A stretch of DNA of 32,000 bases from Acaryochloris thomasi RCC1774 (GCF_003231495.1 NZ_PQWO01000014.1:132550-164549); one strand, 5' to 3'; shown: positions 5,371 to 31,561, counted from the stretch's first letter. Program-made: numbers and translations. Notes: generated from the letters alone by a model not told the origin.

Positions 5371-5406
5371 TTCAGATCTCCTAGCCAGTACCAATCCTCT
5401 GCATAA

Positions 5407-17745: not shown

Positions 17746-19992
17746 TTACCATAATGGCTCAAGTCTTTTTTCTGCAGGCTGTGGTGCATTTGGAGAAAAT
17801 TGTGATTTTCTCTCCATCGGTGAATCGACTTGGACTAAGAAGGCTAGTTTGACCACCTGACCTTGTTTATTTGATACCGAGAGAACAATTTGAGAAAGTT
17901 CCTTCGTGGCTTTTAAGATCTTCGAGTCTTTAGCTGAAACATTTCCAAATGGTTCGAGATTGACAGTGAGATCATCACCTTCTGCCTGCCAATCAAGTTT
18001 TACGACTTGTCCGACTTTCAAGAAGACTGAAGGGGTTGTCTCTGCACTTTGACCATTGAGCGTAAAAGCAGAGATTTTAGGTGGCTTGCCCTTCACTTCA
18101 ACCGGGATTGGTTCGGAGGGTGGTGCCTGTTTTTGATTACTCTTAGAAACCGTTTGCAGACTAATCGTATAGTCACCAGGGGTTGCCGGTAGCCCAACTC
18201 TTACATTTGAGCACATCAGCTCCTCATTTACTGGCGGTTTGCACTTTTGGGTTAGCTCAGGTGGTATCTGCTGCTTAAAGTCATAGGTTTTAATCAACGT
18301 GGGCTTTCCTTCCTTGAGCTGACTAAACACTTGAAGCTCTGAAAGCTGACTGGCATTTTTCAGTTTCCAATTGAGGGGTAGGAGCTGACCTTTCTCAACT
18401 TTGGACTGGCTAGATGAAACGCCCGCTACTAGAGGGAGCGGCCTTGGCTGCACCACAACGTTCAGTTCTTTCTGACTACTATGCTTTTCTGATTTCGCTT
18501 CAATCTGGAGATTAAAGGTGTACTCCCCGGCGAGTCGGGCGCCGGTATCGATGTTTGTGCAGGTTAGGTTGCGATGGCCAAAGGCCGACCGAGAGTCATC
18601 GCGACTCTGACAAAAGCGACTCAACTCCGTTGGCACTCCTTCCGAGAAATCATACACCTGGGGCTTGCCGACAATCTGATCCTTTATAGAAGTAACCGTA
18701 AGCTGCTCAAGCTGGTCTACATTCGAGACACTCCAGTTGAGGCGCACCCGCCCACCTTCCACATAACGATTACTGTCTGGCTTAAATTCAGTCAAGACAG
18801 GCGGCAACGCAGGTCTAAAGAAGGCCAGCCAAATAAAGAATCCAAGGCCCGATAAGGTACCGACCCCCACCAATATCCACAACAGCAACTGCCACCAGGG
18901 GCGGGCTTTCCAAATCAGAAGTCCCTTCGTGACCTGCTCAGGAAGGGGTAATCCGTCAAGGTCTGTGAGATCAATTTGAAACGGCACCTCTAGCCCACGA
19001 CCCAAAAGCGGACGTTGCCATTTCCGTTTGGGTTGCACTTCCAGATCAATCGCCGCTGTTTCACCCATGAGCAAACGAACAGAAGACGGCTCGCAAGTGT
19101 AGTTGCACATCTCTGTTTCATCTCGACTGCTGGCACTCACCACTACTTCCCGGATCAGATTGCTCTGATTCATCAGCTTGAGCCGATACTGACCGGGTTT
19201 ATGGCTAACCTTGCCGAGCAGAGTTTCGAGGGTCACACTAAGATGAAGGGCGGGTTTAACCTCCAAATACACGAGATCTAAAAACACCTGTTCCGGGGCA
19301 TTATCAGACAGAATCTGTAGCGTCGGTGAGTAGTGGCCTGCAGGCATATCCAAGGGGTAATGGAACTCAACGCTGAGGGTGCCCTGGGTGCCAGGGTTCA
19401 GCTCTAAACTATCGCTATCGGACAGTACCCCTAGTTCGCTGAGATCGGTGCAGGGATATTGAATTGTAATCCACTCTGGATCGAGGTCTAAACAGTTGAG
19501 GCGAAAACGATCGACTCGCCTAGATCGATTGTTCACCTGAACTGATAACGTCTGGTGTTGACCGGGCTGAATAAGGAGGGGCTGCTCTGGACTAGTGGCT
19601 GGAGTGATCGCAAAGGTGGGTTGATCTAATCGTTCAACGGACTGCTCTTTGACCCGCACTTCGAGCTGGCACGGATAGTGGAGTGGTGTCTCTTCTGGAT
19701 AGTGATCAGGGGCATCCACAACCACTGTGTATGGATAGCTGCCTGGTAACGCATCAATGGGCAACTCAAAGGGGAGGCTGACTTCGCATCCTTGTTGAGG
19801 ATCGAGGGCGACTCGCTGCTTTGGCGACGGACACCAGGCTTGAGCCATGTGGTCAAGGTAAACATCTATCACTGCTCCCTCAGCTCCTTGATTGATGAGG
19901 CTGACGTGCAGCGTCACCGTTTCCCCTGGGAATCCCTCTAAGCTGGAGGGAGGATTGAGCATCACTTTGAGAGGCATCGTCATCACATTCAT
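17746..19992 (-). CDS. bitopic membrane protein: three N-terminal beta-sandwich (CARDB/NEW3-like) modules, a TM helix, then three Ig-like repeats with conserved Cys pairs
   Basis: No signal peptide. Three modules each carry h-x-h-x-N-x-[SG] (VSLINQGAE, VQVNNRSRR, LKLMNQSNL). One TM helix, WWQLLLWILVGVGTLSGLGFFIWLAFF (nt 18817-18897), is preceded by K/K/R. The C-terminal repeats show clear internal duplication: LNWSVSNVDQLEQLTV..YDFSEGVPTELSRFC..LTCTN..GEYTFNLQ versus LNWKLKNASQLSELQV..YDFKQQIPPELTQKC..LMCSN..GDYTISLQ. GGAAG lies 9 nt upstream, in the 18-nt gap after the previous gene. Confidence 0.8.
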   Translation of the reverse strand: MNVMTMPLKVMLNPPSSLEGFPGETVTLHVSLINQGAEGAVIDVYLDHMAQAWCPSPKQRVALDPQQGCEVSLPFELPIDALPGSYPYTVVVDAPDHYPEETPLHYPCQLEVRVKEQSVERLDQPTFAITPATSPEQPLLIQPGQHQTLSVQVNNRSRRVDRFRLNCLDLDPEWITIQYPCTDLSELGVLSDSDSLELNPGTQGTLSVEFHYPLDMPAGHYSPTLQILSDNAPEQVFLDLVYLEVKPALHLSVTLETLLGKVSHKPGQYRLKLMNQSNLIREVVVSASSRDETEMCNYTCEPSSVRLLMGETAAIDLEVQPKRKWQRPLLGRGLEVPFQIDLTDLDGLPLPEQVTKGLLIWKARPWWQLLLWILVGVGTLSGLGFFIWLAFFRPALPPVLTEFKPDSNRYVEGGRVRLNWSVSNVDQLEQLTVTSIKDQIVGKPQVYDFSEGVPTELSRFCQSRDDSRSAFGHRNLTCTNIDTGARLAGEYTFNLQIEAKSEKHSSQKELNVVVQPRPLPLVAGVSSSQSKVEKGQLLPLNWKLKNASQLSELQVFSQLKEGKPTLIKTYDFKQQIPPELTQKCKPPVNEELMCSNVRVGLPATPGDYTISLQTVSKSNQKQAPPSEPIPVEVKGKPPKISAFTLNGQSAETTPSVFLKVGQVVKLDWQAEGDDLTVNLEPFGNVSAKDSKILKATKELSQIVLSVSNKQGQVVKLAFLVQVDSPMERKSQFSPNAPQPAEKRLEPLW

Positions 19993-20010
19993 GGCATCTT
20001 CCGTAAAGAT

Positions 20011-22224
20011 CTATTGAGGGTTAAAGCGGTGGAACCGAACCTGAGTGTCTTCAGACCCGCTGGCGACCCACATCCCCTGTTCATTGGCGATTAGGTCTAA
20101 CGAAGTAACCCGGTTAGGGAGGATCGCAATCCGCTTCGGTTTTCGGGTCGAATCAAGAGTCATTGTTGAGGTTATGGGCCAAGCGGTGATCTGTCCGTCG
20201 TCGCCTGCGCTCACTAGCCATCGCTGGTCCGGGGTAAATTGAATTTGACGCACCGATGTCTCTGCGGCCTGCCATCGCGATTGTTGAGTACAGCTTTGCT
20301 GGGGCAGCAGGCCCGCTGCTGTCTCTTTTGATTTCGGCAGATTTGTACAGCGGCTCATGTCCCAGAGCGTAATGTAACCATCAGAGTCTGAGGCTGCGAG
20401 AATAGGAGCTTGAGGAGCAAAGGTGGCGTCCCAAAAAAAGTCATTTTCTCCTCGGTTTTGAGCCGGTTCTGCCAAGAGCTGTCGGGGCTGGGATTTGGCA
20501 ACATCCCACAGCACGAGACGCTTAAACTGTCCGGCACTGGCAAGGGTTTTCTCGTCGGGGCTGAGAGCTAAAGACCAGACTTGATAAGCAAAGCGATCGG
20601 GGAGTGAGAAGACTTTTGGCTGATTGCTGAAGCGAACGTCTCTAGTGCGCTGCCAACGGCGAATCTTGCCGCTTCCGTAGCCGCTATAGAGGGTGAGGGC
20701 GTTGCGGGTAAAGGTCAAATCTAAGATGCGATCGCTAGTCTCATCCGTCGGATCCCTCAACGTATATAACGGCTTGCCCTCATTGATATCCCATGCCTGA
20801 ATACTGCCGTTCTCTAAGCCGGCAAACACCTGATTATTGTTTACGGGCACCAGCGCTAAAGCTCGAATGGCTTGTTTCGTTAGGGCGAATAGACCTTTTC
20901 CAGAGCGCGGTTGCTTCTCAGTACAAGTTTGAGTAGACGCCCCTTTGTTTGAGGCACCTTCGGGCTCGAGCGTTCCCCAGCTCGATATTCCCCAGCTTCG
21001 AATAGAGCAATCATCCGCAGCGCTGAGCACTAGCGGCAGTCTGCCACTGGTACCGCTCAGTTGAACCGCATTCACGCCTGCCAGATGAGTGACGGGTGTG
21101 GGTCTAAAGATAATCGCTGCCAGCATGGCGAAAAAAGCCAATAGTAGCCATAGAGGAATGATGGGAAAAACTTTTAGGAGTAGAGTTTGAGTTGCTGGAT
21201 CACAGCTCCCTAACCTTGGATCTGACAGCCAGGGCTTTACCTCAAACTTCAGTTTTTGCGACCATCCAATCCAGGGGCGACGGGGGGAGAGGGTTAAGTC
21301 AACGTTCGTTATTTCTCCGAGCGGCAGGACAGCTTGTTCTGGATCAACCTGAGTCTGGCAGCGCTGAGCATCTTGGCCTCGCACTTCTAAGTCAACGGTT
21401 TGCAAAAGATTACTGGTGTTTTGAAACATCAGCTGGAACGTTGCCTGAGGCGATCTGAAATTTGGCAGCCAGGGCCTTTTCGCCGGAATTCGCTGTCGCT
21501 GAGGCTGGGCTTCAAACTGCATGAAGCCAACAGGCAGAACCTCCAGCACTCCTTGCGTTTCGAGGGTATGCCCTTCTCGATTCTGCGCGGTAATTATGAA
21601 AGGATAATTCTGGCTCGGAACCTGATCAGCCCCTGCAGGCTGACATTGAAAGGTTGTGGTGGTCTCGCTCTGGGCCGCAATTTCTAATCGTCGTTCTGCG
21701 CCGCCCACTAGCCAGCTTGCCTGTAGTTCTTTGCACTGCAGAAGTACTTCTGTTGGCTGCGATCCTACATTTTTGATCGTGACTGGAATATCAATCGTGT
21801 TGCGGGGATAAACCTGCAGGTGCTGGATGGGCAATCCAAGACGCAGATGGTTGGATTCAATTCTGGGTTCTAAGGTGAGTCGCAGCACCAGCCGTCGTTC
21901 TTCGGGGAGCTGTGGCGAAGAGACCCGAACCATAAGATTGACGGTCCCAACAAAGTCAGGAATAGGCGAGTCAAGAATCTTGACCTGGAAGTCAGTGCGA
22001 TCGCCGGTCGATTTTGCGGTAGAGACTTCAGGGGAGAGATGATACCAACCCGTCTGATCATTGGCTCCGGCGGCGAGAATCTCTAGCTGAAACGAGGCAA
22101 ACTGATCGCTACGATTCATGACTGAAACGCCAAAAGAAACAGGTGTTTCCCCAGGGCGAAAGGTGAGGCTTTGCGTAGTTAGACTCGCATCAATAGTTGA
22201 GCTGGCAATCATGATGAGACTCAA
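20011..22224 (-). CDS. bitopic membrane protein: three N-terminal beta-sandwich modules, a TM helix, then a C-terminal WD40 beta-propeller
   Basis: The N-terminal half is paralogous to 17746-19992 (VSVMNRSDQ, VTIKNVGSQ, LMFQNTSNL; PRRPWIGW before the TM; FRP after it). The TM helix is IIPLWLLLAFFAMLAAIIF (nt 21106-21165). WD-like blade ends are SIRSWG, SIQAWDI, KIRRWQ, LVLWDV, ITLWDM, ITAWPI. The track start is TTG 22224; ATG 22212 is an alternative. Confidence 0.8.
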   Translation of the reverse strand: MSLIMIASSTIDASLTTQSLTFRPGETPVSFGVSVMNRSDQFASFQLEILAAGANDQTGWYHLSPEVSTAKSTGDRTDFQVKILDSPIPDFVGTVNLMVRVSSPQLPEERRLVLRLTLEPRIESNHLRLGLPIQHLQVYPRNTIDIPVTIKNVGSQPTEVLLQCKELQASWLVGGAERRLEIAAQSETTTTFQCQPAGADQVPSQNYPFIITAQNREGHTLETQGVLEVLPVGFMQFEAQPQRQRIPAKRPWLPNFRSPQATFQLMFQNTSNLLQTVDLEVRGQDAQRCQTQVDPEQAVLPLGEITNVDLTLSPRRPWIGWSQKLKFEVKPWLSDPRLGSCDPATQTLLLKVFPIIPLWLLLAFFAMLAAIIFRPTPVTHLAGVNAVQLSGTSGRLPLVLSAADDCSIRSWGISSWGTLEPEGASNKGASTQTCTEKQPRSGKGLFALTKQAIRALALVPVNNNQVFAGLENGSIQAWDINEGKPLYTLRDPTDETSDRILDLTFTRNALTLYSGYGSGKIRRWQRTRDVRFSNQPKVFSLPDRFAYQVWSLALSPDEKTLASAGQFKRLVLWDVAKSQPRQLLAEPAQNRGENDFFWDATFAPQAPILAASDSDGYITLWDMSRCTNLPKSKETAAGLLPQQSCTQQSRWQAAETSVRQIQFTPDQRWLVSAGDDGQITAWPITSTMTLDSTRKPKRIAILPNRVTSLDLIANEQGMWVASGSEDTQVRFHRFNPQ

Positions 22225-22278
22225 TACTTGGATTGTCTTTCATTGAATGACAATTCAAAGCCAGAAAAATCCGACCTC

Positions 22279-22304
22279 GGTCTAATCTATTGAGGTCTAA
22301 TCTA
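22279..22304. repeat. 11-bp direct repeat ggtctaatcta-ttga-ggtctaatcta in the spike / membrane-protein spacer
   Basis: Read directly from the sequence. It lies 55-80 nt upstream of the 20011-22224 start codon, within a 129-nt gap that also holds a small hairpin (ttgaat-gaca-attcaa, 22243-22258). Confidence 0.6.
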
Positions 22305-22353
22305 CCGAAGCTGTCGGGATAGAATGTATTTCTAACTCTTGCCGGAGATTTCC

Positions 22354-24360
22354 TTACATGAGTTGCGGAATACCGTTAGCCGTAACAACACCTACCATCG
22401 CAACCGAGGGGGCCCCAATATTAATCATTGATGATGAGAATAAATTAAGTGGCCCGACTGAAGTAGCAGTTATGGTGCCTAATGCCTTGACACTGACCGC
22501 ACCGGCTGCATCAACATTAACCGCACCACCTGCCTTTACATCAACCGCGCCACCCGCTTTGAGACTAATAGCGCCACCTGCCATCATATTAATCAGCCCC
22601 GTAGTTCGAAGCGAGATACTCATTGTAGGGTCACTAAAGGTTAAAGCTTGTTGTGTTCTAGTTTTCACCGTGATTGTTGAGGCCGTGTCATTGAGGATGA
22701 CTTGATTCCTGCCAGCGGTCTTGATATCAATCCCTTTTGAAGCGAGATTATCATCCATTTCTATCTGGTGCTTTCCATTTGTCCTGATCTCAATCTTGCG
22801 ATCGCTATCATTCAAATGAACCTTGTGGCCTCCAGATGTCTCAATAAGAATGCCTTTATCAAAGCCAAATTTACCCTCTTCAACAAATTGAATAGTGTGG
22901 CCTGTACGAGTCTTGATCGTACGTAGGTTGACCTTCCCATTTTGGATAGTGTCACGAACGGTTTCAACGGTTTTGTCTTTGCCGTTCCAGACGCCGCCAA
23001 TGATATAGGGGCGATGAATGTCTCCATGCTCAAAGGCAACTAGGACTTCATCATCAATTTCAGGAAGACAGTAAAAGCCCCGCTCCTTAGCAGCTCCTAG
23101 ACCTACCACTCTGGCCCAGTGGCTTTCGTCCTTCTCAGTCAAAGTAGGAAACTTTACCTTGACGCGCCCCCAGCCCTCAGGATCATCATTATTGGTCACT
23201 ATGCCGACTAGGTTCGTTTGACCGGGCTGCAGATGCGTCTTAGGCGGCAGGGTAGAGAGTAAGCTACCTTGTCTTAACCCACGAACGTCAAAATGAGTCT
23301 TCAGTACCCCTTGTCGATAGAGATGACAGGCTTCGGTCACATAGTATTGACCGCTATAGCGAGTCCCCAGCTTTTCAAGTTTGACGACTTTGCCAGGACG
23401 GATTTCGGGGTTGCCTTCAGCCTTCGCTTTGGCCGTTACGAACTCACCCCCTAGTTCATTACAGAGAGCCTGAGCCATTTGCTTCGCTTCTTTTGAACTC
23501 TCAACGGTTTGATCCACTACAATCATCTGCGGAGAGGGCATGGACTTAAAGACCTGACTGCTGCTACCTTTCTTATTGCCAGTGCTAGTAACAAGCTGTT
23601 CTTCAGAGACCTTCTCTGAGATCAGTTTCTTCTGGCTGTAATCCCAGCCGTGGACTTCAACGGAGCTAACCTGCTCAGCAGTAGTCGTCCGTACATCGAA
23701 GCTACTGATGTCGGTAAGCCACTCTAGGCTTAAAGAGCCATCACTCTTCGGTTCACGGAAGTAGAGCTTGTTATCCTGCACAAAGAGTTCAAAGCCAATG
23801 CGGGCCGCTCGCTCGCGCAGAAACTCCATATTGGTTTGATTCTCTTGGAATGTATAGTCACGGGGAGTGCCGCTTGAATCAACTTGCCCCATTTTGATGC
23901 CCGCTTCTTTGGCAACTGTTTTGACAATGTCGCTTTCGGTCTGGTTTAAGAAAGAGCGGTTATGGCGTCCCCGATGCAGTCGATGGGAGATGTCATAGCC
24001 TCGGATGACAAGGTGAGCTTCAGAGGTCTCAGAAAACTTGACTTCGATGCCAGTAATTTCACCCTCAATTAACTGCAGCTCTTGTTCGCTCTCTTTAAAC
24101 TCAGGGTCTTCTGTTGTACTGCCCTTAAACCCGATCGTGATTGAATCGCCGAGCTTGAAATATTTCTCATTCCGCCATTCTTCGCTGTCCTCGCTGGCAG
24201 GAACGTAGACGTTATGAACCTTGAGAACAAACATGCTCGGCAGATGCAGGCTCTCATCTACAGTGATTTCTAATATGTCTTTCATCAGTGTTGCCGAAGC
24301 GGTAGCGCCTCCTATCTTGAGGATTGGCTCTGATAAATAGAGGGTTTTACTCTTAGGCAT
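22354..24360 (-). CDS. phage-tail spike protein, gpD/gp27 plus gp5 OB-fold plus beta-helix (VgrG/Afp8-like)
   Basis: The N-terminal late-control-D/gp27-like region reads LEITVDESLHLPSMFVLKV..., LVIRGYDISHRLHRGRHNRSF..TESDIV..., NMEFLRERAARIGFELFV. The gp5-type OB fold reads GIVTNNDDPEGWGRVKVKFPTL...SHWARVV...GFYCLPEIDDEVLVAFEHGDIHRPYIIGGVWNG. The C-terminal beta-helix has 8-residue repeats (KAGGAVDV KAGGAVNV DAAGAVSV). Confidence 0.9.
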   Translation of the reverse strand: MPKSKTLYLSEPILKIGGATASATLMKDILEITVDESLHLPSMFVLKVHNVYVPASEDSEEWRNEKYFKLGDSITIGFKGSTTEDPEFKESEQELQLIEGEITGIEVKFSETSEAHLVIRGYDISHRLHRGRHNRSFLNQTESDIVKTVAKEAGIKMGQVDSSGTPRDYTFQENQTNMEFLRERAARIGFELFVQDNKLYFREPKSDGSLSLEWLTDISSFDVRTTTAEQVSSVEVHGWDYSQKKLISEKVSEEQLVTSTGNKKGSSSQVFKSMPSPQMIVVDQTVESSKEAKQMAQALCNELGGEFVTAKAKAEGNPEIRPGKVVKLEKLGTRYSGQYYVTEACHLYRQGVLKTHFDVRGLRQGSLLSTLPPKTHLQPGQTNLVGIVTNNDDPEGWGRVKVKFPTLTEKDESHWARVVGLGAAKERGFYCLPEIDDEVLVAFEHGDIHRPYIIGGVWNGKDKTVETVRDTIQNGKVNLRTIKTRTGHTIQFVEEGKFGFDKGILIETSGGHKVHLNDSDRKIEIRTNGKHQIEMDDNLASKGIDIKTAGRNQVILNDTASTITVKTRTQQALTFSDPTMSISLRTTGLINMMAGGAISLKAGGAVDVKAGGAVNVDAAGAVSVKALGTITATSVGPLNLFSSSMINIGAPSVAMVGVVTANGIPQLM

Positions 24361-24444
24361 GGGAGGTTACTCTTCGCTACATTGACGGGTGATTATTGTT
24401 TTGCCTGCTATTAAGTAGATAAGCGTAATTGTCTTATAAAAGGA

Positions 24445-24511
24445 TTTCGACTCCGCTCAAACCTCGACTTCTAGCCCAACAAGAAATTCAGCTGGTTGAG
24501 CGGAGTCGAAA
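24445..24511. repeat. perfect 16-bp inverted repeat (tttcgactccgctcaa ... ttgagcggagtcgaaa) with a 35-nt spacer
   Basis: Read directly from the sequence. The arms are 24445-24460 and 24496-24511. It lies inside the 197-nt gap between the tube-initiator-like gene and the spike gene. Confidence 0.85.
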
Positions 24512-24557
24512 CCAGCGACTGGATTGACAATTGATTAGCCCCAGCGACTTATCGGCT

Positions 24558-25058
24558 TTACCCCAGCCTCTTATCTGCCTTTCCTGCTGTAGGTGCTTTG
24601 CTCCCTGCTACATTGCTTGGATCGACTTCTTGGAGGCCAATGTTGACGATGGCTTTGACCGGGGTGCCGTCTTCTAAAAAGAGAGTAAGCCGATAATTCA
24701 AGCTTGTCATCACGCAGTGAAAATACTTTTCAGACCACATTAATGTATAGACAGGGGGGCGACTAATGGCGCTAGATTTAGCGGTCACTCCCTCTTTGAT
24801 ATTGTTGATATGCTCTGCGAGGACACTTTTTTTTGTTTCATAGGTGTCAAAAAGCAAGTTCTGTAATGTGCAGGTGTAGGGATCAACTCCTGAGAAATTC
24901 ACCTTTGGTAATAGAGTGCTGCTGCGATTCCCCCGATCGCTGTGCCAAGCAACTTGGCGGGTGAACTCAAGTTCTGATGGATTAAACATGAACTCAATTT
25001 CTTTGGGGTTACCACTGAGAGCGCTATAGACCTCCAGCTTTGCTTTTGTCAGTCCCAT
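24558..25058 (-). CDS. CIS tube-initiator-like protein (Afp7 N-terminal / CIS_tube-type domain, no LysM)
   Basis: Its pattern is KAKLEV....G.PKEIEFMFNPSELEF.....W.........NF.G..P....L..LLFDTYE....V..HI..I........RPPV....W.......V..SL......F..DGTPVKA.V...L.EV. That matches the family signature as I remember it. Confidence 0.8.
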   Translation of the reverse strand: MGLTKAKLEVYSALSGNPKEIEFMFNPSELEFTRQVAWHSDRGNRSSTLLPKVNFSGVDPYTCTLQNLLFDTYETKKSVLAEHINNIKEGVTAKSSAISRPPVYTLMWSEKYFHCVMTSLNYRLTLFLEDGTPVKAIVNIGLQEVDPSNVAGSKAPTAGKADKRLG

Positions 25059-25095
25059 TTTTTCTACCTTAAAGTTCTGAGTGCGGAATGATTTA

Positions 25096-25506
25096 CTAAG
25101 TCAAACACCCTTGGGTAAATCCGTGGCGTTCTTGCTCGATTTCTAGCCGTCGATAAAGTTGGTAAGCCATTTCTTGCGTTAGCTGTGCAAAAATGTCTTC
25201 ATTGATTTGCCTAGAGAGGCCTGGGTTTACCGCTTGCCACAGGAGGCTCGTGCTTTTAGGGAAGCCATTGCGCTCTTGCTCAATTTCTAGGAGGGGAGAG
25301 ATGCGATGACAAATCATTCCAGCTAAAAGCTTTAAATCTGCAAGATTGACTTGGTCCACGTTGTCCAAAGCGTCTTCGAAGCTAGAAGCTTCAGGCTCTA
25401 CGTTTTCGGCAAGCGGCTTCTCTTCTGGTTCAACAAAATGGACTGTAAGGTCATGTTTCTGAATGTCCTCATCTGCCAGTAGGTCTTCAATACTTGTCCA
25501 CTGCAT
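25096..25506 (-). CDS. hypothetical acidic protein with a duplicated helix plus LEIEQER-x-GF module
   Basis: 136-aa ORF with a CAGGAG RBS. The N-terminus is acidic. The motif LEIEQERNGF (nt 25261-25290) recurs as LEIEQERHGF (nt 25117-25146), with about 21/26 nt identity. It occupies the Afp6-like position between the tube and the tube initiator. Confidence 0.65.
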   Translation of the reverse strand: MQWTSIEDLLADEDIQKHDLTVHFVEPEEKPLAENVEPEASSFEDALDNVDQVNLADLKLLAGMICHRISPLLEIEQERNGFPKSTSLLWQAVNPGLSRQINEDIFAQLTQEMAYQLYRRLEIEQERHGFTQGCLT

Positions 25507-25527
25507 CGTTAAACTCCTGATTTATGT

Positions 25528-26040
25528 TCATTCCCAGGCGCTAGTTGCGAAATATCCTTTGCCATCTCTTTCGTTAGTTCCAGATTTCGCGGCTTCTTTC
25601 TTGCCAATTTTTAAACCTTCGAAGGCGAGGGTCAGCTCTTCTACAGCCACCGTATTACCGTCTGCTTCTAAGCTGGGTAGCGTCCAGCCCACCGGAATGG
25701 CACCAATGAGACTCCAGCTTTTCATAATGTCTCCAGCCTGGTTGTAGGTGGTGATCGTTACGTTGCGTCGCTTAATTTTGTCTTCGAAGACTTGGCTCAG
25801 CCATTCTGAAAAAGCAGCATTGTCTGTGACCCCTCGTTTGAGTGTGATATCTGAAAATCTAGTGTGTCCTAAGCTAATCCGTTGCTGATCGTTGACGCCC
25901 CCCTCGTGATGAACATCTTTCTCAATCTCAACACTGATGCCTGAACATTCAGAGAATGAACCCAGTTCGTCTCCATCGACTTCTATATGGAATCGATTGG
26001 TGGTGACAAAGTTCTCAACGTGATCTTTGTATTCAGCCAT
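25528..26040 (-). CDS. phage tail tube protein, T4 gp19 / Afp1-Pvc1 family
   Basis: Its pattern is NRFHIEVDGDELGSFSECSGISVEIE...HEGG.....ISLGHTRFSDITLKRGVTDN..F.EW......KI.RRNVTITTYNQAGD.MKSW.L.GA.PVGW..PSLEADGN.VAVEELTLAFEGL. This is the characteristic eCIS/T4-like tube signature. Confidence 0.9.
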   Translation of the reverse strand: MAEYKDHVENFVTTNRFHIEVDGDELGSFSECSGISVEIEKDVHHEGGVNDQQRISLGHTRFSDITLKRGVTDNAAFSEWLSQVFEDKIKRRNVTITTYNQAGDIMKSWSLIGAIPVGWTLPSLEADGNTVAVEELTLAFEGLKIGKKEAAKSGTNERDGKGYFATSAWE

Positions 26041-26041
26041 C

Positions 26042-26206
26042 TCATTGTCTTCCTGTGCTGGGGTTGCCGATTCTCTCTCGCTGGATTCTCAGATCTGAGT
26101 AGAGTTGCTCGTAGATACGATCGCACAATTGCTCAGCCAGCACCGCTTCATTCAGACAGCGTTCAGCCAACTGCGCTAGACGTTCGTGCTTGATAGACTC
26201 TTTCAT
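26042..26206 (-). CDS. unlisted 54-aa ORF, paralogous to the repeat unit of the 136-aa protein
   Basis: My own translation is MKESIKHERLAQLAERCLNEAVLAEQLCDRIYEQLYSDLRIQRERIGNPSTGRQ*. A strong RBS (CCAGGAGGCTGT) precedes ATG 26206. The stop TGA (26042-26044) ends 1 nt before the tube ATG. AEQLCDRIYEQLYSDLRIQRERIG aligns with FAQLTQEMAYQLYRRLEIEQERHG of the 136-aa protein. Confidence 0.6.
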   Translation of the reverse strand: MKESIKHERLAQLAERCLNEAVLAEQLCDRIYEQLYSDLRIQRERIGNPSTGRQ

Positions 26207-26315: not shown

Positions 26316-28487
26316 TCAATACTTTTCCCAACTGCGGATCAGCTTTTGTGCCTTGGGATAAGACGGGCTCGGTTCTTGGATTTGCTTGAGGGTTGCGATC
26401 GCATCTCGAAACTTGCCATTTCTGGCCAATTCTTTGGCAAGGGATAGACGACACCGATCAAGTTCCTGTTGAGATTTTTGATACTGCTCTGTACTGGATT
26501 GAACATCATCGCCTCTAGAGTGGCTGACGTAACCTGACGGTTGTGTCCTCTCTGTTCCTACGGCAGACAGTTGCGGACGGGAACGCCACTTCCTGAAATC
26601 AATCATCCTGCGAAGAGACTGAAAGCATCGTCTGGGTAGACTGACGAAAAGCATGCTGACAGATCTCCGACTCCGCCAAACATTTCGCACAAGGGCTCGG
26701 CCCGGAACTTTATTTTTATTGCGTACAATTGCCAAATCTGCCTGCTGAATGTGCGGCGTATTCTGCTGGCACAGGGTTTGGTCCAGTGGTTGCTCATCCA
26801 TTGGATCGATAGTTTGGGCAACCGTTTGATCCGCTGGGTTGTGGATGGCTGAGTCTAAATACTGAACAATCGTCTCGTCAGCCCCCAAGCCAGGAGAAAT
26901 CTTACCCTCAATCCTTCTCCCCTTTTGACTATTAGGCATATTGCTCTCTAAAATCGTCTGGGCTACTGTCTGATCGATAGGGAAATGAGCGATCGGGCTT
27001 GAGGTTTGAACAATTGTCTCATCCACTCTCAGAACTTGTGCCGAATCATCATTTTGATCGGCTGGATTATGGATGGCTACATCTAAATATTGAACAATCG
27101 TCTCATCCACTCCTAAGTCTTGAGCATCTTCGATCTCAAGGCTGTCACTGACCTTTTTATGATTCTCCAGTACGCTGCTTTCTGAGTATATTTGGGTCAC
27201 TGTTTGATCGATTGGGGGAAAAGCGACTGAGTCTGAATATTGAACAATCGTTTCATCCACTCCTAAGTCTTGGGCAGCATTATCGCTATCGCTTAAGGTT
27301 GCGCTACGCTCTGACCAAGCACTCGGCAACACGACTTGGGTCAACGCTTGACCAGCAGGTGCGGGGCGCTCTGAAGCTTGGATCATAGTTTCGTCAAGCT
27401 CCAGAGCCTGCATTGTGTTTGAGCGATCGGGATGGTCAACTATCGTTGATGTCACCTGAGTTGATGCACCTTTGATTCGGGTATCCAAACTCCCTTGAAT
27501 GAAGGTCTGATCATAATTGTCCCCGTGATTATCACTTGCAGCATCCGGTGCTGGGTGAGCGCCAATCTCCACCTGCTCCAGTGCTTGTCGCAATGCGTTG
27601 ATAGAGGCGTAGCGATCGCACGGATTCTTTGCTAAACACCGATTGACAATCTCCGACAATGCAGCTGTGACCGGACTCTTCATCAACAACACCTGCAGTA
27701 AACGAGGTGCCCGAAACGCATGGGCATGAATCCAAGCCCCCTCTCTCACCAGCCGCGAATCTAAACCCAGACCAAAGGGGTCGGTTCCGCTGAGCATCTC
27801 GTAGAGAATGATGCCTAACACATAAACATCTGCAAGATGATTCTTCTCTTCTCCTTCTAGCTGCTCAGGAGCTGCATAGTGAAAAGTTTCCGGCAACAAT
27901 GTTTCAAAACTTGCACCTTGGGTTTCGCAACAAGAGCTGCGAATGTCTTTCGTAAGTCCGCAGTCCAGTAACTTGACCGGCCCGCTTCGCGTTAGAAAAA
28001 TTTGAGTAGGCTTCAGCTCGTGGGGCACAATTACAAACGGTTCATCACTCTCGAACAAACTCGCAAATTTGCTTTGGTAAGACATTTCTAATGCCGCACA
28101 AATTTGACTAGTAATACCAACAGCCTGCTGGGGTGACAACTTCCCCTCTCTCTCAAGACACTGTTTGAGACTTTCTCCCTGCAAATATTCCATCACATAA
28201 AACGGGCAGCCACCTGCATTCGTTCCTGAGTCCAGCACTTGCGCAATGTATTCACCTCCGAGCGCTGCACACGACTTGACGGCCCTTTCAAACTGCTGGC
28301 AGGTCTCGGCATTTTCTATCAGAGGTTCTTTGAGCACCTTGATGACAACAGACCGATTCAATTGAGTATCCGTGGCTAGAAAAACCTGCCCAACGCCACC
28401 TGAATCAAGGACATGCTTAACGATGTAGCGGTCATCTGCACCCCATGGCTGAGCTTGGTGGGAGTTCTGGATAGGGGTAAGAGTCAT
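26316..28487 (-). CDS. Hanks-type Ser/Thr kinase homologue with degenerate catalytic motifs, a Thr-rich repeat array and a TPR-like C-terminus
   Basis: The kinase fold motifs are SGGVGQVF, VVIKVLK, YAAPEQ and LGIILYEMLSGTDPFG. However, HRDLKPxN reads PHELKPTQ and DFG reads DCG. The middle third carries 5-6 degenerate ~30-aa repeats. The C-terminus LAKELARNGKFRDAIATLKQI is TPR-like. No TM segment. Confidence 0.85.
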   Translation of the reverse strand: MTLTPIQNSHQAQPWGADDRYIVKHVLDSGGVGQVFLATDTQLNRSVVIKVLKEPLIENAETCQQFERAVKSCAALGGEYIAQVLDSGTNAGGCPFYVMEYLQGESLKQCLEREGKLSPQQAVGITSQICAALEMSYQSKFASLFESDEPFVIVPHELKPTQIFLTRSGPVKLLDCGLTKDIRSSCCETQGASFETLLPETFHYAAPEQLEGEEKNHLADVYVLGIILYEMLSGTDPFGLGLDSRLVREGAWIHAHAFRAPRLLQVLLMKSPVTAALSEIVNRCLAKNPCDRYASINALRQALEQVEIGAHPAPDAASDNHGDNYDQTFIQGSLDTRIKGASTQVTSTIVDHPDRSNTMQALELDETMIQASERPAPAGQALTQVVLPSAWSERSATLSDSDNAAQDLGVDETIVQYSDSVAFPPIDQTVTQIYSESSVLENHKKVSDSLEIEDAQDLGVDETIVQYLDVAIHNPADQNDDSAQVLRVDETIVQTSSPIAHFPIDQTVAQTILESNMPNSQKGRRIEGKISPGLGADETIVQYLDSAIHNPADQTVAQTIDPMDEQPLDQTLCQQNTPHIQQADLAIVRNKNKVPGRALVRNVWRSRRSVSMLFVSLPRRCFQSLRRMIDFRKWRSRPQLSAVGTERTQPSGYVSHSRGDDVQSSTEQYQKSQQELDRCRLSLAKELARNGKFRDAIATLKQIQEPSPSYPKAQKLIRSWEKY
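26772..27407 (-). repeat. in-frame degenerate tandem repeats encoding (L)G(V)DETIVQY.D......P.DQTV.Q units
   Basis: Repeated nucleotide blocks are visible at about 26851-26880, 27001-27030, 27081-27120, 27236-27270 and 27380-27400 (for example tgaacaatcgtctcatccac). In protein these are aa 361-572 of the kinase. Confidence 0.85.
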
Positions 28488-28588: not shown

Positions 28589-30070
28589 ATGCCTGAACCG
28601 TTCATCAGTTACACAATGAGCACAGCTACCGAATGCTGCCGTTCAGCGGCTAGAAACCCTCTATTGACGGTGCGAAAAGTGACTCATCCATCGATTTGTC
28701 AATCTAACCCTTTATTAGGTCGCTCTATTGGTGACCACCATCGATATCGCCTTGAAACCCAGCTTGGTAAAGGAGGGATGGGACACGTCTATCAAGCAAC
28801 GGATACTCGATTGGGCAAGACCGTTGCGGTTAAACTCCTTAATCCATCATTGAAGAGCGACCCCACAACGACCGAACTCGATTTCAAACGAAGATTTGAG
28901 CGAGAATGTGCCATCTGTGCTGCTCTTACAAATGAAAATATTGTCCAAGTCAGCGACTACGGCATGACCCCTGAAGGGCAGCCCTTCTATGTGATGGAGC
29001 ACCTTGAAGGACAAACCTTAGAGCAGGTTCTGAAGCAAGAGACCAAACTATCTGTAGAACGAACGAAGCAGATCATGAAGCAGGTCTGTGCAGGCTTGAG
29101 ATCGGCTCATGAAGGCGTACGATTCAAAACCCCACAGATGGAGACCGATGAATGCATCAAAATCATCCACCGCGATCTGAAGCCCGCCAATATTTTCTTA
29201 GTCCCCACTGAGCTAGGAGAGCGAGTAAAGGTCATCGACTTTGGTATTGCCAAGGTGCAGTCCTTAAATTTAGAGAATATGACCCTAGCAAGCTCTTTCT
29301 TGGGCACACATCACTATTCCGCTCCAGAACAGTTCGATAGCCAGGGCCAGCTTGACGAACGAGCAGATATCTACTGCTTAGGAATCATTCTGTATGAAAT
29401 GCTGACAGGTGCTGATCCCTTCGGTTTAAAGACTCGAGAGCAACGAGTCGCAGGCGAGTCTTGGATTAAAGCCCACTTACTCAAGCCAGCACAGCCACTG
29501 CGTTCTCAAGTAGGCTGTGAGCATCTACCGCCAGGACTTGAGCGCATTGTTGAGCGTTGCTTAGAGAAACACCCCGATCGGCGGTTCCCTTCAGTCAAAG
29601 CACTAGCCCAAGCACTAGATATTGAGCATGAGACTTTACCCAATAGCCTAGTAGCCACATCGAGGAAGAATCTAGCGGGTATGACTCAGACCTTAAGTGA
29701 AATTCCTGTTCATTTTCAACAGAGCGAATCACTTGCACAAGTGAGACAGTGGCTCCAAGCACATCTGAAACGCGCTGTCAGTCCTATCCAGAGCAAGGCA
29801 GGACGTGCTTCAAGTCATTCTCTAAACGATCTGTCTCTGTCTTCAAAATTATCAATTGTCAATTCACAACTCATTGAAAGATGCCGCACCGAGCTAGCTT
29901 TCCACATTGGCCCGATTGCGAGCTTGGTGATTGAGCAAGCACTCATCAACCGGCAATATCAACAGCCCAAAAAGTTCATTGAAGTTCTGTCTCATCATAT
30001 CCCCGACGATGATACGGCTACTCATTTTCGCCGAACACTGCTGTCTCCAACCCCCACTCAGTTAGGTTAA
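28589..30070 (+). CDS. Hanks-type Ser/Thr protein kinase (canonical catalytic motifs)
   Basis: Motifs are GKGGMGHVY, VAVKLL, IIHRDLKPANIFL, VIDFGIAK, YSAPEQ and LGIILYEMLTGADPFG. The ~120-aa C-terminal domain (ELAFHIGPIASLVIEQAL...) is non-catalytic. The gene is divergent from 26316-28487. The start could be ATG 28589 or ATG 28616. Confidence 0.9.
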   Translation: MPEPFISYTMSTATECCRSAARNPLLTVRKVTHPSICQSNPLLGRSIGDHHRYRLETQLGKGGMGHVYQATDTRLGKTVAVKLLNPSLKSDPTTTELDFKRRFERECAICAALTNENIVQVSDYGMTPEGQPFYVMEHLEGQTLEQVLKQETKLSVERTKQIMKQVCAGLRSAHEGVRFKTPQMETDECIKIIHRDLKPANIFLVPTELGERVKVIDFGIAKVQSLNLENMTLASSFLGTHHYSAPEQFDSQGQLDERADIYCLGIILYEMLTGADPFGLKTREQRVAGESWIKAHLLKPAQPLRSQVGCEHLPPGLERIVERCLEKHPDRRFPSVKALAQALDIEHETLPNSLVATSRKNLAGMTQTLSEIPVHFQQSESLAQVRQWLQAHLKRAVSPIQSKAGRASSHSLNDLSLSSKLSIVNSQLIERCRTELAFHIGPIASLVIEQALINRQYQQPKKFIEVLSHHIPDDDTATHFRRTLLSPTPTQLG

Positions 30071-30963: not shown

Positions 30964-31036
30964 TTTCTCCTAGCAGACTCATTTTCCGCTTCACTCCAAA
31001 GCAGACAAAAAATAATGACGTTTATACAACAAAAAA

Positions 31037-31522: not shown

Positions 31523-31561
31523 TATAGCCGTGTGAGGGATAAAAGCTGGTCCGCTTTTGAA

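What the first reader, a model, noticed from the sequence alone, without database searches (positions are those of the whole stretch)
17746..26206. Sheath-less, baseplate-less tail-tube/spike operon joined to a pair of membrane proteins
Seen:
- Seven co-directional minus-strand ORFs run from 26206 to 17746, with a kinase just upstream.
- 25528-26040 carries the T4 gp19/Afp1 tail-tube signature.
- 24558-25058 carries the CIS tube-initiator (Afp7 N-terminal type) signature.
- 22354-24360 is a gp27 + gp5-OB + beta-helix spike.
- The order tube, small protein, initiator, spike reproduces the Afp5-6-7-8 order of extracellular contractile injection systems.

Established knowledge:
- All described contractile injection systems (T6SS, eCIS/Afp/PVC, thylakoid-anchored CIS, R-type tailocins) also require a sheath, a gp25/gp6/gp7-type baseplate wedge and a tail terminator. 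They usually also have a PAAR tip, a tape measure and an AAA+ ATPase.
- These genes are normally in the same locus.

What differs here:
- No ORF in this 32-kb window resembles any of those components.
- Where PAAR/gp25/baseplate genes would follow the spike, there are two paralogous bitopic membrane proteins.
- Where the sheath would precede the tube, there are Hanks kinases.
- All ORFs are intact and tightly packed (1-nt, 21-nt, 37-nt and 18-nt gaps). Perfect HIP1 octamers lie inside the 737-aa gene (20728, 21997) and the spike gene (22798), so these genes are long-resident host genes rather than fresh phage debris.

Inference, three alternatives:
- (a) a non-contractile tube/spike device tethered to a membrane by the two bitopic proteins
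- (b) an accessory spike/tube module serving a complete CIS encoded elsewhere
- (c) a domesticated remnant with a new function
Basis: partly seen in the sequence, partly recalled or inferred. Interest (0 to 1): 0.85.

Follow-up and report, generated by a model that had tools for sequence, protein, structure and literature searches.

The report
Spike module of a split injection system
This operon is the spike, tube-initiator and adaptor part of an ordinary contractile, phage-tail-like injection system whose sheath and baseplate genes lie on another contig of the same Acaryochloris genome, so it is not a sheath-less device; the attached kinases and paired membrane proteins remain a modest lead.

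Summary
Seven real, co-directional minus-strand genes (26206-17746) encode a small conserved protein, a gp19-type tube protein, a 136-aa protein, a Cis7-type tube initiator, a VgrG-related spike and two paralogous single-pass membrane proteins. Hanks kinases lie upstream. No sheath or baseplate gene is in the 32-kb window.

The window is from Acaryochloris thomasi RCC1774. That genome encodes an orthologous sheath (PZD70851.1), gp25 (C1752_08863), Baseplate-J/Cis11 (C1752_08864) and DUF4159 (C1752_08866). All four are recorded on a 52,986-bp contig; the spike is on a 164,549-bp contig.

In relatives the same three modules are found adjacent, pairwise linked or dispersed:
- M1: cap, sheath, tubes, cap, ATPase
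- M2: this operon
- M3: gp25, J, P2_I, DUF4159

The closest solved structures are the Streptomyces coelicolor cytoplasmic CIS (dbeCIS subtype IId). Split eCIS loci and cyanobacterial IId loci are already in the literature.

What remains of interest:
- The 737/748-aa membrane pair recurs next to CIS modules in distant cyanobacteria. It may be a CisA-like membrane adaptor.
- The system is embedded in Hanks-kinase/FHA signalling.

Verdict: a new member of a known kind, of modest interest.

The parts
26042..26206 (-). 54-aa conserved small protein ('w54'), first gene of the spike module. Its C-terminus is ...DLRIQRERIGNPSTGRQ.
   Evidence: No Pfam hit. It is 55-60% identical to the 65-73-aa genes at the same position in Nostoc and Pleurocapsa. 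The family is present in 51 related loci. It has a conserved C-terminal [EQ]R[EQ]R.G-type motif.
25528..26040 (-). gp19-family tube protein, most likely the one-ring adaptor (Cis1b/Cis5-like) rather than the polymerising tube.
   Evidence: Phage_T4_gp19 E=3e-38 and TIGR02241. CIS5_fam scores 86 bits against 42 bits for CIS1_fam, both below cutoff. The best Streptomyces match is 9gtp_a, a chain present only in the baseplate model (6 chains), at E=3e-16. The main tube 8bl4_v scores E=7e-6.
25096..25506 (-). 136-aa protein ('w136'). It is a short member of a family that in other loci is a 300-1600-aa repetitive protein at the same position between tube and initiator. It is a candidate tape-measure or lumen protein.
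   Evidence: 33% identity to the Nostoc 139-aa gene. It shares the C-terminal motif LA.EIY.RLR.RLEIERER.G...G(C/R)LPW with the giant proteins. No Pfam or PDB match.
24558..25058 (-). Tube initiator (Cis7/Afp7 N-terminal type), without a LysM domain.
   Evidence: CIS_tube PF19266 E=8.5e-22 over residues 3-146 of 166. PDB hits are 8kea_P 'tube initiator', 9gtp_P (S. coelicolor CIS) and 7aeb_M (AlgoCIS). Some relatives have it fused to VgrG (P0023, P0049, P0060, P0077; L010, L027, L029).
22354..24360 (-). VgrG-related spike (Cis8): gp27-like, gp5 OB-fold and beta-helix, with a long C-terminal extension.
   Evidence: NF033848 VgrG_rel at 351 bits (cutoff 275), Phage_GPD and Phage_base_V. 100% identical to A. 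thomasi PZD71728.1. The best PDB hit is the S. coelicolor CIS spike 9gtr_q, E=2e-56. Long VgrGs (>=620 aa) never have an adjacent PAAR gene (0/32), against 34/46 for short ones.
20011..22224 (-). 737-aa bitopic membrane protein: N-terminal ~345-aa all-beta region (predicted cytoplasmic), one TM (~352-372) and a C-terminal WD40 propeller (predicted extracytoplasmic).
   Evidence: WD40 E=3e-22 and many beta-propeller families over residues ~446-725; weak Ig-like hits (Cep192_D3, FixG_C) in the N-terminal half. Hydropathy. 68% identical to the Pleurocapsa orthologue. It recurs next to CIS modules.
17746..19992 (-). 748-aa bitopic membrane protein, paralogous to the 737-aa protein in its N-terminal ~320 aa. 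It has one TM (368-392). The C-terminal region reads as about three repeated modules, two of them with Cys pairs.
   Evidence: BLASTP against the 737-aa protein gives E=7e-7. Hydropathy. Weak Ig_VWA7 hit. It always follows the 737-aa gene in related loci. The family has 182 50%-identity clusters at E<=1e-30. The C-terminal repeats and Cys pairs were read by eye from the sequence.
26316..28487 (-). 723-aa Hanks-type Ser/Thr kinase. It is fused to eight D[EQ]T[IVM]xQ repeats and to a C-terminal domain that is a free-standing 370-390-aa protein ('N390') at the head of the same operon in other cyanobacteria.
   Evidence: Pkinase E=1e-27. The C-terminal ~190 aa are 41% identical to Nostoc N390, E=6e-34. 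Repeats are: 8 in the window, 2-5 in close relatives, and 2 of 1370 other ORFs.
28589..30070 (+). 493-aa Hanks-type kinase, divergent from the operon. It is syntenic in the Acaryochloris/Thermosynechococcaceae lineage and often sits next to the 737/748 pair elsewhere.
   Evidence: Pkinase E=4.5e-45. Same synteny in L011, L014, L017 and L089. A kin493-like gene lies directly upstream of the pair in L097 and L098, and beside it in L099.
30208..31522 (+). Two small membrane proteins (DUF1232, 251 aa; 'w161', 161 aa) that are syntenic with the spike module in close relatives.
   Evidence: DUF1232. Hydropathy. Conserved order w161-DUF1232-kinase|kinase-w54-tube-w136-Cis7-VgrG in L011, L014, L017 and L089. 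In L089 the cap and sheath genes follow 0.9 kb beyond w161.

Best explanation
The seven-gene operon is the central-spike module (M2) of a complete, sheath-bearing contractile injection system. The system is related to the Streptomyces coelicolor cytoplasmic CIS (dbeCIS subtype IId-like). In Acaryochloris thomasi RCC1774 it is encoded as a split locus.

Proposed roles within M2:
- VgrG forms the trimeric spike.
- The Cis7-like protein and the gp19-family protein form the two hexameric adaptor rings that nucleate the tube.
- The 136-aa protein and the 54-aa protein share a conserved C-terminal helix motif. They are accessory assembly or lumen proteins (possibly tape-measure-like).

The other parts are encoded on another contig:
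- M1: cap, sheath, main tube paralogues, second Pvc16_N protein and AAA+ ATPase.
- M3: baseplate wedge (gp25, Cis11/Baseplate_J, P2_I-like Cis12, DUF4159).

The two Hanks kinases, the Thr-rich repeat/N390 domain, and the FHA and pseudokinase-PBP proteins seen beside M2 or M3 in relatives probably form a threonine-phosphorylation switch for assembly or firing. This would resemble PpkA/Fha in T6SS.

The paired bitopic 737/748-aa proteins most likely act at the membrane. Their cytoplasmic N-terminal beta-domains would dock the particle and their extracytoplasmic WD40 and repeat domains would anchor or sense. That would make them functional analogues of Streptomyces CisA.

Shown: gene identities, orthology, genomic linkage patterns, and the presence of sheath and baseplate genes in the same genome.
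Inferred: co-assembly of the modules, the phosphoregulation, and the role of the membrane pair.
For: (1) Identities of tube, initiator and spike are.

(2) The window is from A. thomasi RCC1774, because its VgrG is 100% identical to PZD71728.1 (164,549-bp contig).

(3) In Nostoc L007 the same N390-w54-tube-w136-Cis7-VgrG operon is flanked on both sides.
- On one side: Pvc16_N, sheath, two tubes, Pvc16_N and a WHD/AAA ATPase.
- On the other: gp25, J, P2_I and DUF4159.
- L015 is the same.
- L089 is a close relative with the window's exact kinase/DUF1232/w161 synteny. It has cap and sheath 0.9 kb beyond w161.

(4) A. thomasi has orthologues of the other modules, all recorded with a longest contig of 52,986 bp.
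- Sheath PZD70851.1 is 74% identical to the L007 sheath. It is in the same 90% cluster as the L089 and L088 sheaths.
- Baseplate_J is C1752_08864, 74% identical to L007 J.
- gp25 is C1752_08863 and DUF4159 is C1752_08866.

(5) The closest MAG (VgrG 86% identical) shows the same split. M1 and DUF4159 are on a 67-kb contig and M2 is on a 39-kb contig. L094 has M1+M3 without M2.

(6) gp25, J and P2_I lie within 10 kb of the VgrG in 54-57 of 83 related loci.

(7) The closest solved relatives are S. coelicolor CIS chains.
- Sheath 8bky scores 380 bits; tCIS All3325 scores 178 bits.
- Cis11 (9gtp) scores 387 bits.
- VgrG (9gtr) scores 195 bits (PDB codes assigned in PMC12237407).

(8) Split eCIS loci and cyanobacterial IId loci are documented (PMC6899500).

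(9) The 737/748 pair is linked to CIS modules in the window, L004, L015, L025, L026 and L030. In an independent scan anchored on the 737-aa protein, 3 of 4 long contigs carried M2, M3 and/or the M1 ATPase. Orthologues are ~60-70% identical across orders, like the structural genes.
Against: - I could not read the A. thomasi 52,986-bp contig. Cap, main tube, ATPase and Cis12 in that genome are therefore inferred from relatives and from the gap in accession numbers.
- That the sheath and baseplate genes share one contig is inferred from identical 'longest contig' lengths.
- No expression or particle data exist for any member of this cyanobacterial lineage.
- Only about 10 of ~90 loci have the 737/748 pair nearby, so it is not a core component. 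Its role is purely inferential.
- The AlphaFold model of its N-terminal region was low confidence (pLDDT 53).
- The tape-measure idea for the 136-aa protein has no homology support.
Confidence: 0.85

Rival explanations
1. A genuinely sheath-less, non-contractile tube/spike device tethered to a membrane by the two bitopic proteins. It would work independently of the sheath and baseplate genes encoded elsewhere.
For: The operon is intact, tightly packed and host-adapted, with HIP1 sites. The membrane pair directly follows the spike in the window, L025, L026 and L030. No sheath is in the window.
Against: The same genome has an orthologous sheath, gp25, J and DUF4159. The identical operon sits next to sheath and baseplate modules in L007, L015 and L089. 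Only one VgrG/Cis7 set is seen per system, and M1+M3 loci such as L094 have none of their own, so the sheath module needs this spike. Most loci with this operon lack the membrane pair.
Confidence: 0.03
2. A decaying or domesticated remnant: the spike module was separated from its system by rearrangement and is now non-functional or used for something unrelated.
For: M2 is unlinked from M1 and M3 in A. thomasi. The downstream neighbours differ between the window, L017 and L011. PAAR is absent.
Against: All seven ORFs are intact. They are 55-86% identical to orthologues across cyanobacterial orders. The same M2 versus M1+M3 split is conserved in the closest MAG. Modular dispersal is the norm in this lineage. 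PAAR absence correlates with the long-VgrG subtype rather than with decay.
Confidence: 0.05
3. The operon is the CIS spike module as stated, but the 737/748-aa proteins are not adaptors. They are either (i) CIS cargo or effectors, like the paralogous single-TM Sco4256-4258 of Streptomyces, or (ii) envelope sensors or partners of the neighbouring Hanks kinases that only happen to be near CIS genes.
For: Sco4256-4258 are paralogous single-TM proteins with similar N-termini and variable C-terminal domains. They are encoded in the CIS cluster and required for filled tubes and for cell death (PMC10066040). A kin493-like kinase sits next to the pair in L097, L098, L099 and L004. The wider family has variable C-terminal lengths of 700-1200 aa.
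Against: At ~740 aa with folded beta-domains on both sides of the membrane, they are large for lumen cargo. Their conservation (60-70% identity over both halves) is not what fast-evolving effectors show. The pair is linked to M2, M3 or M1 in 9 of 10 informative loci. No direct comparison with the CisA or Sco4256-58 sequences was possible.
Confidence: 0.3

Closest known systems
Streptomyces coelicolor cytoplasmic contractile injection system (CIS-Sc; dbeCIS subtype IId; PDB 8BKY, 8BL4, 9GTP, 9GTR, 9GTS)
   Same: It gives the best PDB matches for the A. thomasi sheath (380 bits), the Cis11/Baseplate_J (387 bits) and the window's VgrG (195 bits). The window's tube matches the baseplate-only tube chain, consistent with the Cis1b adaptor, and the Cis7 also matches. 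Shared features: single-ORF VgrG, a two-ring Cis1b+Cis7 adaptor, no recognisable Afp14 tape measure or tail fibre, and bitopic membrane proteins encoded with the system (CisA; Sco4256-58).
   Different: The cyanobacterial system is split into three operons that are often unlinked. It carries Hanks kinases, FHA and a pseudokinase-PBP protein. It has DUF4159 after Cis12. Its membrane proteins have a different architecture (beta-domains, TM, then WD40 or repeats) and no demonstrated homology to CisA. The host is a unicellular marine cyanobacterium with thylakoids. No experimental data exist.
'Split loci' of extracellular CIS and T6SS-iv of Amoebophilus asiaticus (Chen et al. 2019, PMC6899500)
   Same: CIS components are encoded at two or more disparate genomic locations yet form one machine. 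That paper also lists cyanobacterial subtype IId loci, for example in Calothrix NIES-4101.
   Different: Chen et al. reported only 13 split genomes. Here dispersal into M1, M2 and M3 looks like the rule for a whole cyanobacterial lineage. Whether A. thomasi is in their database was not checked. Geller et al. found no eCIS in 2 Acaryochloris genomes.
Thylakoid-anchored CIS (tCIS) of Anabaena sp. PCC 7120 (all3313-all3327; PDB 7B5H, 7B5I)
   Same: A cyanobacterial, intracellular, membrane-associated CIS with tube, sheath, Cis7, VgrG and baseplate homologues.
   Different: It is a different clade: tCIS sheath All3325 scores 178 bits against 380 for Streptomyces, and VgrG All3320 scores 120 against 195. 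tCIS is one contiguous cluster, is anchored by Cis12 and Cis13 extensions, and has Cis19. No kinases or FHA are mentioned (0 occurrences).
T6SS threonine-phosphorylation pathway (PpkA kinase / Fha / PppA)
   Same: A Hanks kinase and an FHA protein are encoded with a VgrG/tube machine, which suggests post-translational control of assembly or firing. This rests on established knowledge and on titles retrieved.
   Different: There is no TssB/C, TssJLM or ClpV. The VgrG falls below the T6SS VgrG model cutoffs (TIGR03361 63 bits against 186). Homology is limited to generic kinase and FHA domains. Phosphorylation here is untested.
Afp/PVC extracellular CIS (Afp5-6-7-8 gene order)
   Same: The order tube, small protein, initiator, spike matches Afp5-6-7-8. 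Tube, sheath and spike homology is detectable.
   Different: Sequence relatives are distant (Pvc8 45 bits, Afp8 36 bits). The initiator has no LysM domain. There is no Afp13 fibre or Afp14 tape measure. The system is not a single operon.

Membership tests
Contractile injection system (eCIS/CIS superfamily, lineage II, subtype IId-like) | Contractile sheath protein (Afp2-4/Cis2; Phage_sheath_1/1C) | tested here: met
   Not in the window, but A. thomasi RCC1774 encodes PZD70851.1. It is 571 aa, has Phage_sheath_1 and 1C domains, and is 74% identical to the sheath adjacent to the same operon in L007.
Contractile injection system (eCIS/CIS superfamily, lineage II, subtype IId-like) | gp19-family inner tube / adaptor | tested here: met
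   Window 25528-26040: Phage_T4_gp19 E=3e-38. Further tube paralogues follow the sheath gene in relatives' M1.
Contractile injection system (eCIS/CIS superfamily, lineage II, subtype IId-like) | Tube initiator (Afp7/Cis7) and VgrG-like spike (Afp8/Cis8) | tested here: met
   CIS_tube E=8.5e-22; VgrG_rel 351 bits, above cutoff. PDB matches to Cis7 and Cis8 of S. coelicolor, AlgoCIS and tCIS.
Contractile injection system (eCIS/CIS superfamily, lineage II, subtype IId-like) | Baseplate wedge: gp25 (Cis9) and Baseplate_J (Cis11) | tested here: met
   Absent from the window. Present in A. thomasi as C1752_08863 (gp25) and C1752_08864 (735 aa; 387 bits to 9gtp Cis11).
Contractile injection system (eCIS/CIS superfamily, lineage II, subtype IId-like) | Cis12 (Tail_P2_I-like), cap/terminator (Pvc16_N/DUF4255) and AAA+ ATPase (Cis15) | tested here: inconclusive
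   Present in relatives' modules (L007, L087, L088, L092, L094). In A. thomasi they are only inferred: locus tag C1752_08865 lies between J and DUF4159, and the sheath and gp25 accessions are 18 apart. The contig could not be read.
Contractile injection system (eCIS/CIS superfamily, lineage II, subtype IId-like) | All core genes in one contiguous cluster (the usual eCIS definition) | tested here: not met
   M2 is on the 164,549-bp contig; the sheath and wedge are on a 52,986-bp contig. This fits the 'split locus' category of Chen et al. 2019.
Contractile injection system (eCIS/CIS superfamily, lineage II, subtype IId-like) | Formation of contractile particles | not testable with these tools
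   Needs sheath preparation with EM, or cryo-ET.
Type VI secretion system | TssB/C sheath, TssJLM membrane complex, TssK/F/G, ClpV; VgrG reaching T6SS model cutoffs | tested here: not met
   VgrG scores 63-73 bits against cutoffs of 122-186 for TIGR01646 and TIGR03361. No Tss genes are in the window or in 90 related loci. The sheath is of the phage/eCIS type.
Thylakoid-anchored CIS (Anabaena tCIS) | Close homology to All3313-All3327, including Cis19 and TM-bearing Cis13 | tested here: not met
   tCIS chains score much lower than Streptomyces chains. No Cis13- or Cis19-like genes were recognised in the recurrent gene clusters. Thylakoid localisation is untestable here.
CisA-type CIS membrane adaptor (Streptomyces) | Bitopic protein encoded with the CIS: cytoplasmic N-terminus, one TM, extracytoplasmic C-terminal domain, required for firing | tested here: inconclusive
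   The 737- and 748-aa proteins each have one TM, no signal peptide and recurrent linkage to CIS modules. Their N-terminus is folded beta-rich rather than unstructured (low confidence). Their C-terminal domains are WD40 or repeats, not SBP-like. Sequence homology to CisA was not tested and function is not testable. This is an analogy, not membership.

The most novel reading that the evidence does not exclude
The 737/748-aa pair forms a heteromeric membrane adaptor and trigger. Their paralogous cytoplasmic beta-domain arrays dock the baseplate or spike of a free cytoplasmic CIS-Sc-like particle. Their extracytoplasmic WD40 and Cys-containing repeat domains sense envelope or thylakoid-lumen damage. 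The adjacent Hanks kinases, the Thr-repeat/N390 protein and the FHA protein gate recruitment or firing. This would be a phospho-regulated suicide or lysis CIS in a unicellular cyanobacterium, with an adaptor family unrelated to CisA.
Probability: 0.25. Interest if true: 0.6.

Novelty: new member of a known kind. Interest (0 to 1): 0.33.

Why it matters
It removes a false lead. There is no evidence here for a sheath-less tube/spike machine, and a window-limited reading of modular CIS loci can easily suggest one.

On the positive side, a CIS lineage close to the Streptomyces cell-death CIS is widespread in cyanobacteria. At least 441 spike loci were confirmed in species-representative genomes. 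The lineage has several notable features:
- It is routinely split into three operons, which eCIS finders that require contiguity may miss.
- It is wired to Hanks-kinase/FHA signalling.
- In a subset it comes with a conserved pair of bitopic membrane proteins.

How cytoplasmic CISs find and fire at a membrane is an open question that so far has only CisA as a handle. The pair is a concrete, testable candidate in a second phylum.

Tried and rejected
1. Divergent sheath hypothesis. I asked whether the unannotated 371-390-aa protein upstream of the tube in Nostoc and Pleurocapsa is a divergent sheath. This was rejected. It has no Pfam or PDB match. It is homologous to the C-terminal domain of the window's kinase and carries Thr-repeat motifs.

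2. Fetching more of the A. thomasi contigs. Exact-protein look-ups (VgrG, w161, sheath) found nothing on record.

3. The A. thomasi genome paper's supplements do not mention phage, sheath or tail genes. The Geller et al. supplements only show 0 of 2 Acaryochloris genomes with eCIS.

4. Adjacency across contig breaks. I tested whether M1 abuts M2 across a contig break in the closest MAG or at the window's end. No sequence overlap was found, so adjacency is neither shown nor excluded.

5. The promoter and terminator scan gave counts no higher than shuffles. Tandem repeats, Rfam and tRNA scans found nothing relevant.

6. PADLOC gave only generic kinase-domain hits (PD-T4-6) and nothing for the membrane pair or the small proteins.

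7. AlphaFold2 on the N-terminal 380 aa of the 737-aa protein, aligned with its paralogue, gave pLDDT 53. That is too low for a fold search, so none was run.

8. Contexts of distant homologues of the 748-aa protein were on 3-4-kb contigs and were uninformative.

9. Literature searches for 'sheathless' CIS, or for kinase/FHA-linked cyanobacterial CIS, found nothing relevant.

Full report
**1. The observation**

The window has seven co-directional minus-strand ORFs between 26206 and 17746. The gaps between them are 1, 21, 37, 197, 129 and 18 nt.

- 25528-26040 is a Phage_T4_gp19 tube protein (E=3e-38).
- 24558-25058 matches CIS_tube PF19266 (E=8.5e-22).
- 22354-24360 passes the NCBIfam 'VgrG-related protein' model (351 bits, cutoff 275) and has Phage_GPD and gp5-OB domains.

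The 737-aa protein has a C-terminal WD40 propeller. The 748-aa protein has only a weak Ig-like hit. Their N-terminal ~320 residues are paralogous (E=7e-7). Each has a single hydrophobic segment and no signal peptide.

Two Hanks kinases lie upstream. The remaining ORFs of the window are housekeeping genes. No sheath, cap, gp25, Baseplate_J, P2_I, PAAR or ATPase is found, even with lineage-specific tblastn queries.

**2. Source and relatives**

The VgrG is 100% identical to PZD71728.1 of Acaryochloris thomasi RCC1774, on a 164,549-bp contig. The family is large and cyanobacterial: 2368 proteins at E<=1e-10. A scan of species-representative genomes gave 441 confirmed loci, of which 80 were fetched.

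I tabulated neighbours by tblastn and by clustering all ORFs. This revealed a modular system.

M2 is the module seen in the window. It has two forms:
- Compact form: [N390 protein, or a kinase fused to its C-terminal domain], a 54-80-aa protein, tube, a ~125-210-aa protein, Cis7, VgrG.
- Nostocales form: a 300-1600-aa repetitive protein replaces the ~136-aa one. A PAAR protein and DUF4157/eCIS_core effector genes are also present.

M3 (gp25, Baseplate_J, Tail_P2_I, DUF4159) lies within 10 kb of the VgrG in 54-57 of 83 loci, in either orientation.

**3. The missing sheath**

My first candidate was an unannotated 371-390-aa protein upstream of the tube. It proved to be homologous to the C-terminal domain of the window's own kinase, not to a sheath.

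The real answer came from L007 (a Nostoc MAG). A divergent operon lies immediately upstream of the same M2 operon. It encodes Pvc16_N, a 568-aa sheath (Phage_sheath_1/1C), two gp19 tubes, a second Pvc16_N and a WHD/AAA ATPase. M3 lies on the other side. L015 (Dulcicalothrix) has the same layout.

I then searched with the L007 sheath. It returned 'Putative prophage major tail sheath protein [Acaryochloris thomasi RCC1774]', PZD70851.1. This protein is 571 aa, 74% identical, and on a 52,986-bp contig.

Searching with the L007 Baseplate_J returned C1752_08864 of A. thomasi. It is 735 aa, 74% identical, and again recorded on a 52,986-bp contig.

Cluster look-ups added gp25 (C1752_08863) and DUF4159 (C1752_08866), also recorded with that contig length.

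The genome therefore has the sheath and the wedge. They are simply not on the window's contig.

**4. The split is conserved, not accidental**

- The closest relative is a Thermosynechococcaceae MAG (VgrG 86% identical). Its M2 is on a 39-kb contig (L017). Its M1 and DUF4159 are on a 67-kb contig (L088).
- L094 carries M1 and M3 back to back, without M2.
- L092 carries HK/RR, pseudokinase-PBP and FHA next to M3.
- L089 shares the window's exact synteny: w161, DUF1232, kinase | kinase, w54, tube, w136, Cis7, VgrG. There the cap and sheath follow 0.9 kb beyond w161. The equivalent position in the window would be just past its end. No overlap could be demonstrated.

Only one VgrG/Cis7 set is seen per system. 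M2 is therefore an integral part of the machine, not an accessory.

**5. What kind of CIS it is**

The best solved-structure matches are the Streptomyces coelicolor cytoplasmic CIS:

| Query | Best Streptomyces match | Score | Comparison |
|---|---|---|---|
| A. thomasi sheath | 8BKY/8BL4 | 380/372 bits | Anabaena tCIS 178 bits; Pvc2 167 bits |
| A. thomasi Baseplate_J | Cis11 in 9GTP | 387 bits | |
| Window VgrG | spike in 9GTR | 195 bits | |

The PDB codes are assigned in PMC12237407.

The window's tube matches the six-copy, baseplate-only tube chain 9gtp_a far better than the main tube 8bl4_v (E=3e-16 against 7e-6). NCBIfam also prefers the Cis5 'adaptor' model. It is therefore probably the one-ring adaptor between Cis7 and the real tube, which is encoded beside the sheath.

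Streptomyces CIS belong to dbeCIS subtype IId (PMC10066040). Chen et al. 2019 already describe cyanobacterial IId loci and a class of 'split loci' (PMC6899500). This is a known kind of system.

**6. The accessory genes**

*Small proteins.* The 54-aa and 136-aa proteins share a conserved C-terminal helix motif (...L.I[EQ][RQ]ER.G...). In the 136-aa family and in the giant proteins this motif ends in G(C/R)LPW. The 136-aa protein is thus a ten-fold shortened version of the giant protein at the Afp6 position. A tape-measure or lumen role is plausible but unsupported by homology.

*Kinase.* The 723-aa kinase carries eight D[EQ]T[IVM]xQ repeats. Its C-terminal domain occurs elsewhere as the separate first gene of M2 (N390), which has related T[IV][VLM]Q repeats. 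Relatives also have FHA and pseudokinase-PBP genes. Together this suggests threonine-phosphorylation control, as in T6SS. This is an inference.

*The 737/748 pair.* It is always in that order. It occurs next to M2 (window, L004, L025, L026, L030) and next to M3+M2+M1 (L015). A metagenome scan anchored on the 737-aa protein gave four long loci:
- L096: next to M3 and the M1 ATPase.
- L097 and L098: next to M3, M2 and a kinase.
- L099: next to a kinase only.

Orthologues are 60-70% identical over both halves. The wider family has 182 50%-identity clusters at E<=1e-30, with variable C-terminal lengths.

The topology is most simply N-in, C-out. There is no signal peptide, there are more K/R residues before the TM, and Cys pairs sit in the C-terminal repeats (the last point was read by eye).

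By analogy with Streptomyces CisA (bitopic, cytoplasmic N-terminus predicted to bind Cis11, required for firing), I favour a membrane-adaptor or trigger role. The Sco4256-58 effector precedent and a kinase-linked sensor role remain open.

**7. Verdict**

The sequence-level observation is right. The feature is the spike module of a split, IId-like contractile injection system.

Novelty: a new member of a known kind. There are some lineage-specific features worth following up: three-operon modularity, kinase/FHA wiring, the bitopic pair, the shortened Afp6-position protein, and long VgrGs that replace PAAR (0/32 against 34/46).

The main residual uncertainty is that I could not read the A. thomasi 53-kb contig itself. 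Cap, main tube, ATPase and Cis12 in that genome are inferred from relatives.

Noticed in passing
window 22354-24360 and loci L001-L086: VgrG length predicts PAAR. Of VgrGs shorter than 620 aa, 34 of 46 have a PAAR gene immediately downstream. Of those 620 aa or longer (including the window's 668 aa), 0 of 32 do. The ~70-90-aa C-terminal extension may therefore replace the PAAR tip.
   Followed up: partly
window 26042-26206 and 25096-25506; L080:4912-9141 and 50 other loci: The 54-aa, ~136-aa and giant (300-1600 aa, PEIVQAP-type repeats) proteins share a conserved C-terminal motif (...RL.I[EQ][RQ]ER.G...). In the latter two families it ends in G(C/R)LPW; the window's copy ends GCLT. The [EQ]R[EQ]R.G core occurs in 81 of 121 family members, always within the last 25 residues, against 6 of 1285 other ORFs. 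The ten-fold size range at the Afp6 position is unexplained.
   Followed up: partly
window 26316-28487 (protein residues ~365-560): There are eight D[EQ]T[IVM]xQ repeats (for example LGVDETIVQYSD and PIDQTVAQTI) between the kinase domain and an N390-like C-terminal domain. The motif is nearly absent from other ORFs (2 of 1370). The free-standing N390 proteins carry related (N/R)TIVQYSDS repeats. These are candidate phospho-acceptor or FHA-docking sites.
   Followed up: partly
P0023, P0049, P0060, P0077; L010, L027, L029: Some relatives encode a single 833-855-aa protein in which the Cis7 tube-initiator domain (PF19266) is fused to the VgrG.
   Followed up: no
L080, L064, L074 and about 24 Nostocales loci: The Nostocales form of the locus carries one to three DUF4157/eCIS_core-domain proteins (probable cargo or effectors) on both sides of the structural genes. 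No such gene is in the window.
   Followed up: no
L004:16700-18829, L092:5553-7646 and 16 loci: A ~700-aa protein with a degenerate kinase-like N-terminus, a hydrophobic stretch and a C-terminal PBP_like_2 domain always precedes a small FHA protein near M2 or M3. Its layout recalls Streptomyces CisA, which has a cytoplasmic N-terminus, a TM and a periplasmic SBP-like domain. It is not in the window.
   Followed up: no
window 5089-6625 (minus strand): A small cluster sits among housekeeping genes. It comprises an HNH endonuclease (5407-5784), a zinc-ribbon protein (5089-5394) and two proteins without Pfam hits (5781-6092 and 6092-6625). It may be a mobile or defence islet.
   Followed up: no
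window 17001-18000 and 30001-32000: GC content drops to 0.41 at 17-18 kb and to 0.43 then 0.39 over 30-32 kb, against ~0.50 elsewhere. These dips fall at the two edges of the CIS/kinase block. The last ~480 nt of the window match nothing in relatives.
   Followed up: partly
window 529-2096: An SbtA bicarbonate transporter is followed by a PII-like (SbtB-type) gene. This is an ordinary cyanobacterial carbon-concentrating pair.
   Followed up: no
L063: One VgrG locus is labelled as an 'uncultured Acetobacteraceae' MAG. Its sequence is 57% identical to the cyanobacterial family. It is probably a mis-binned contig from a lichen or cyanobacterial sample.
   Followed up: no
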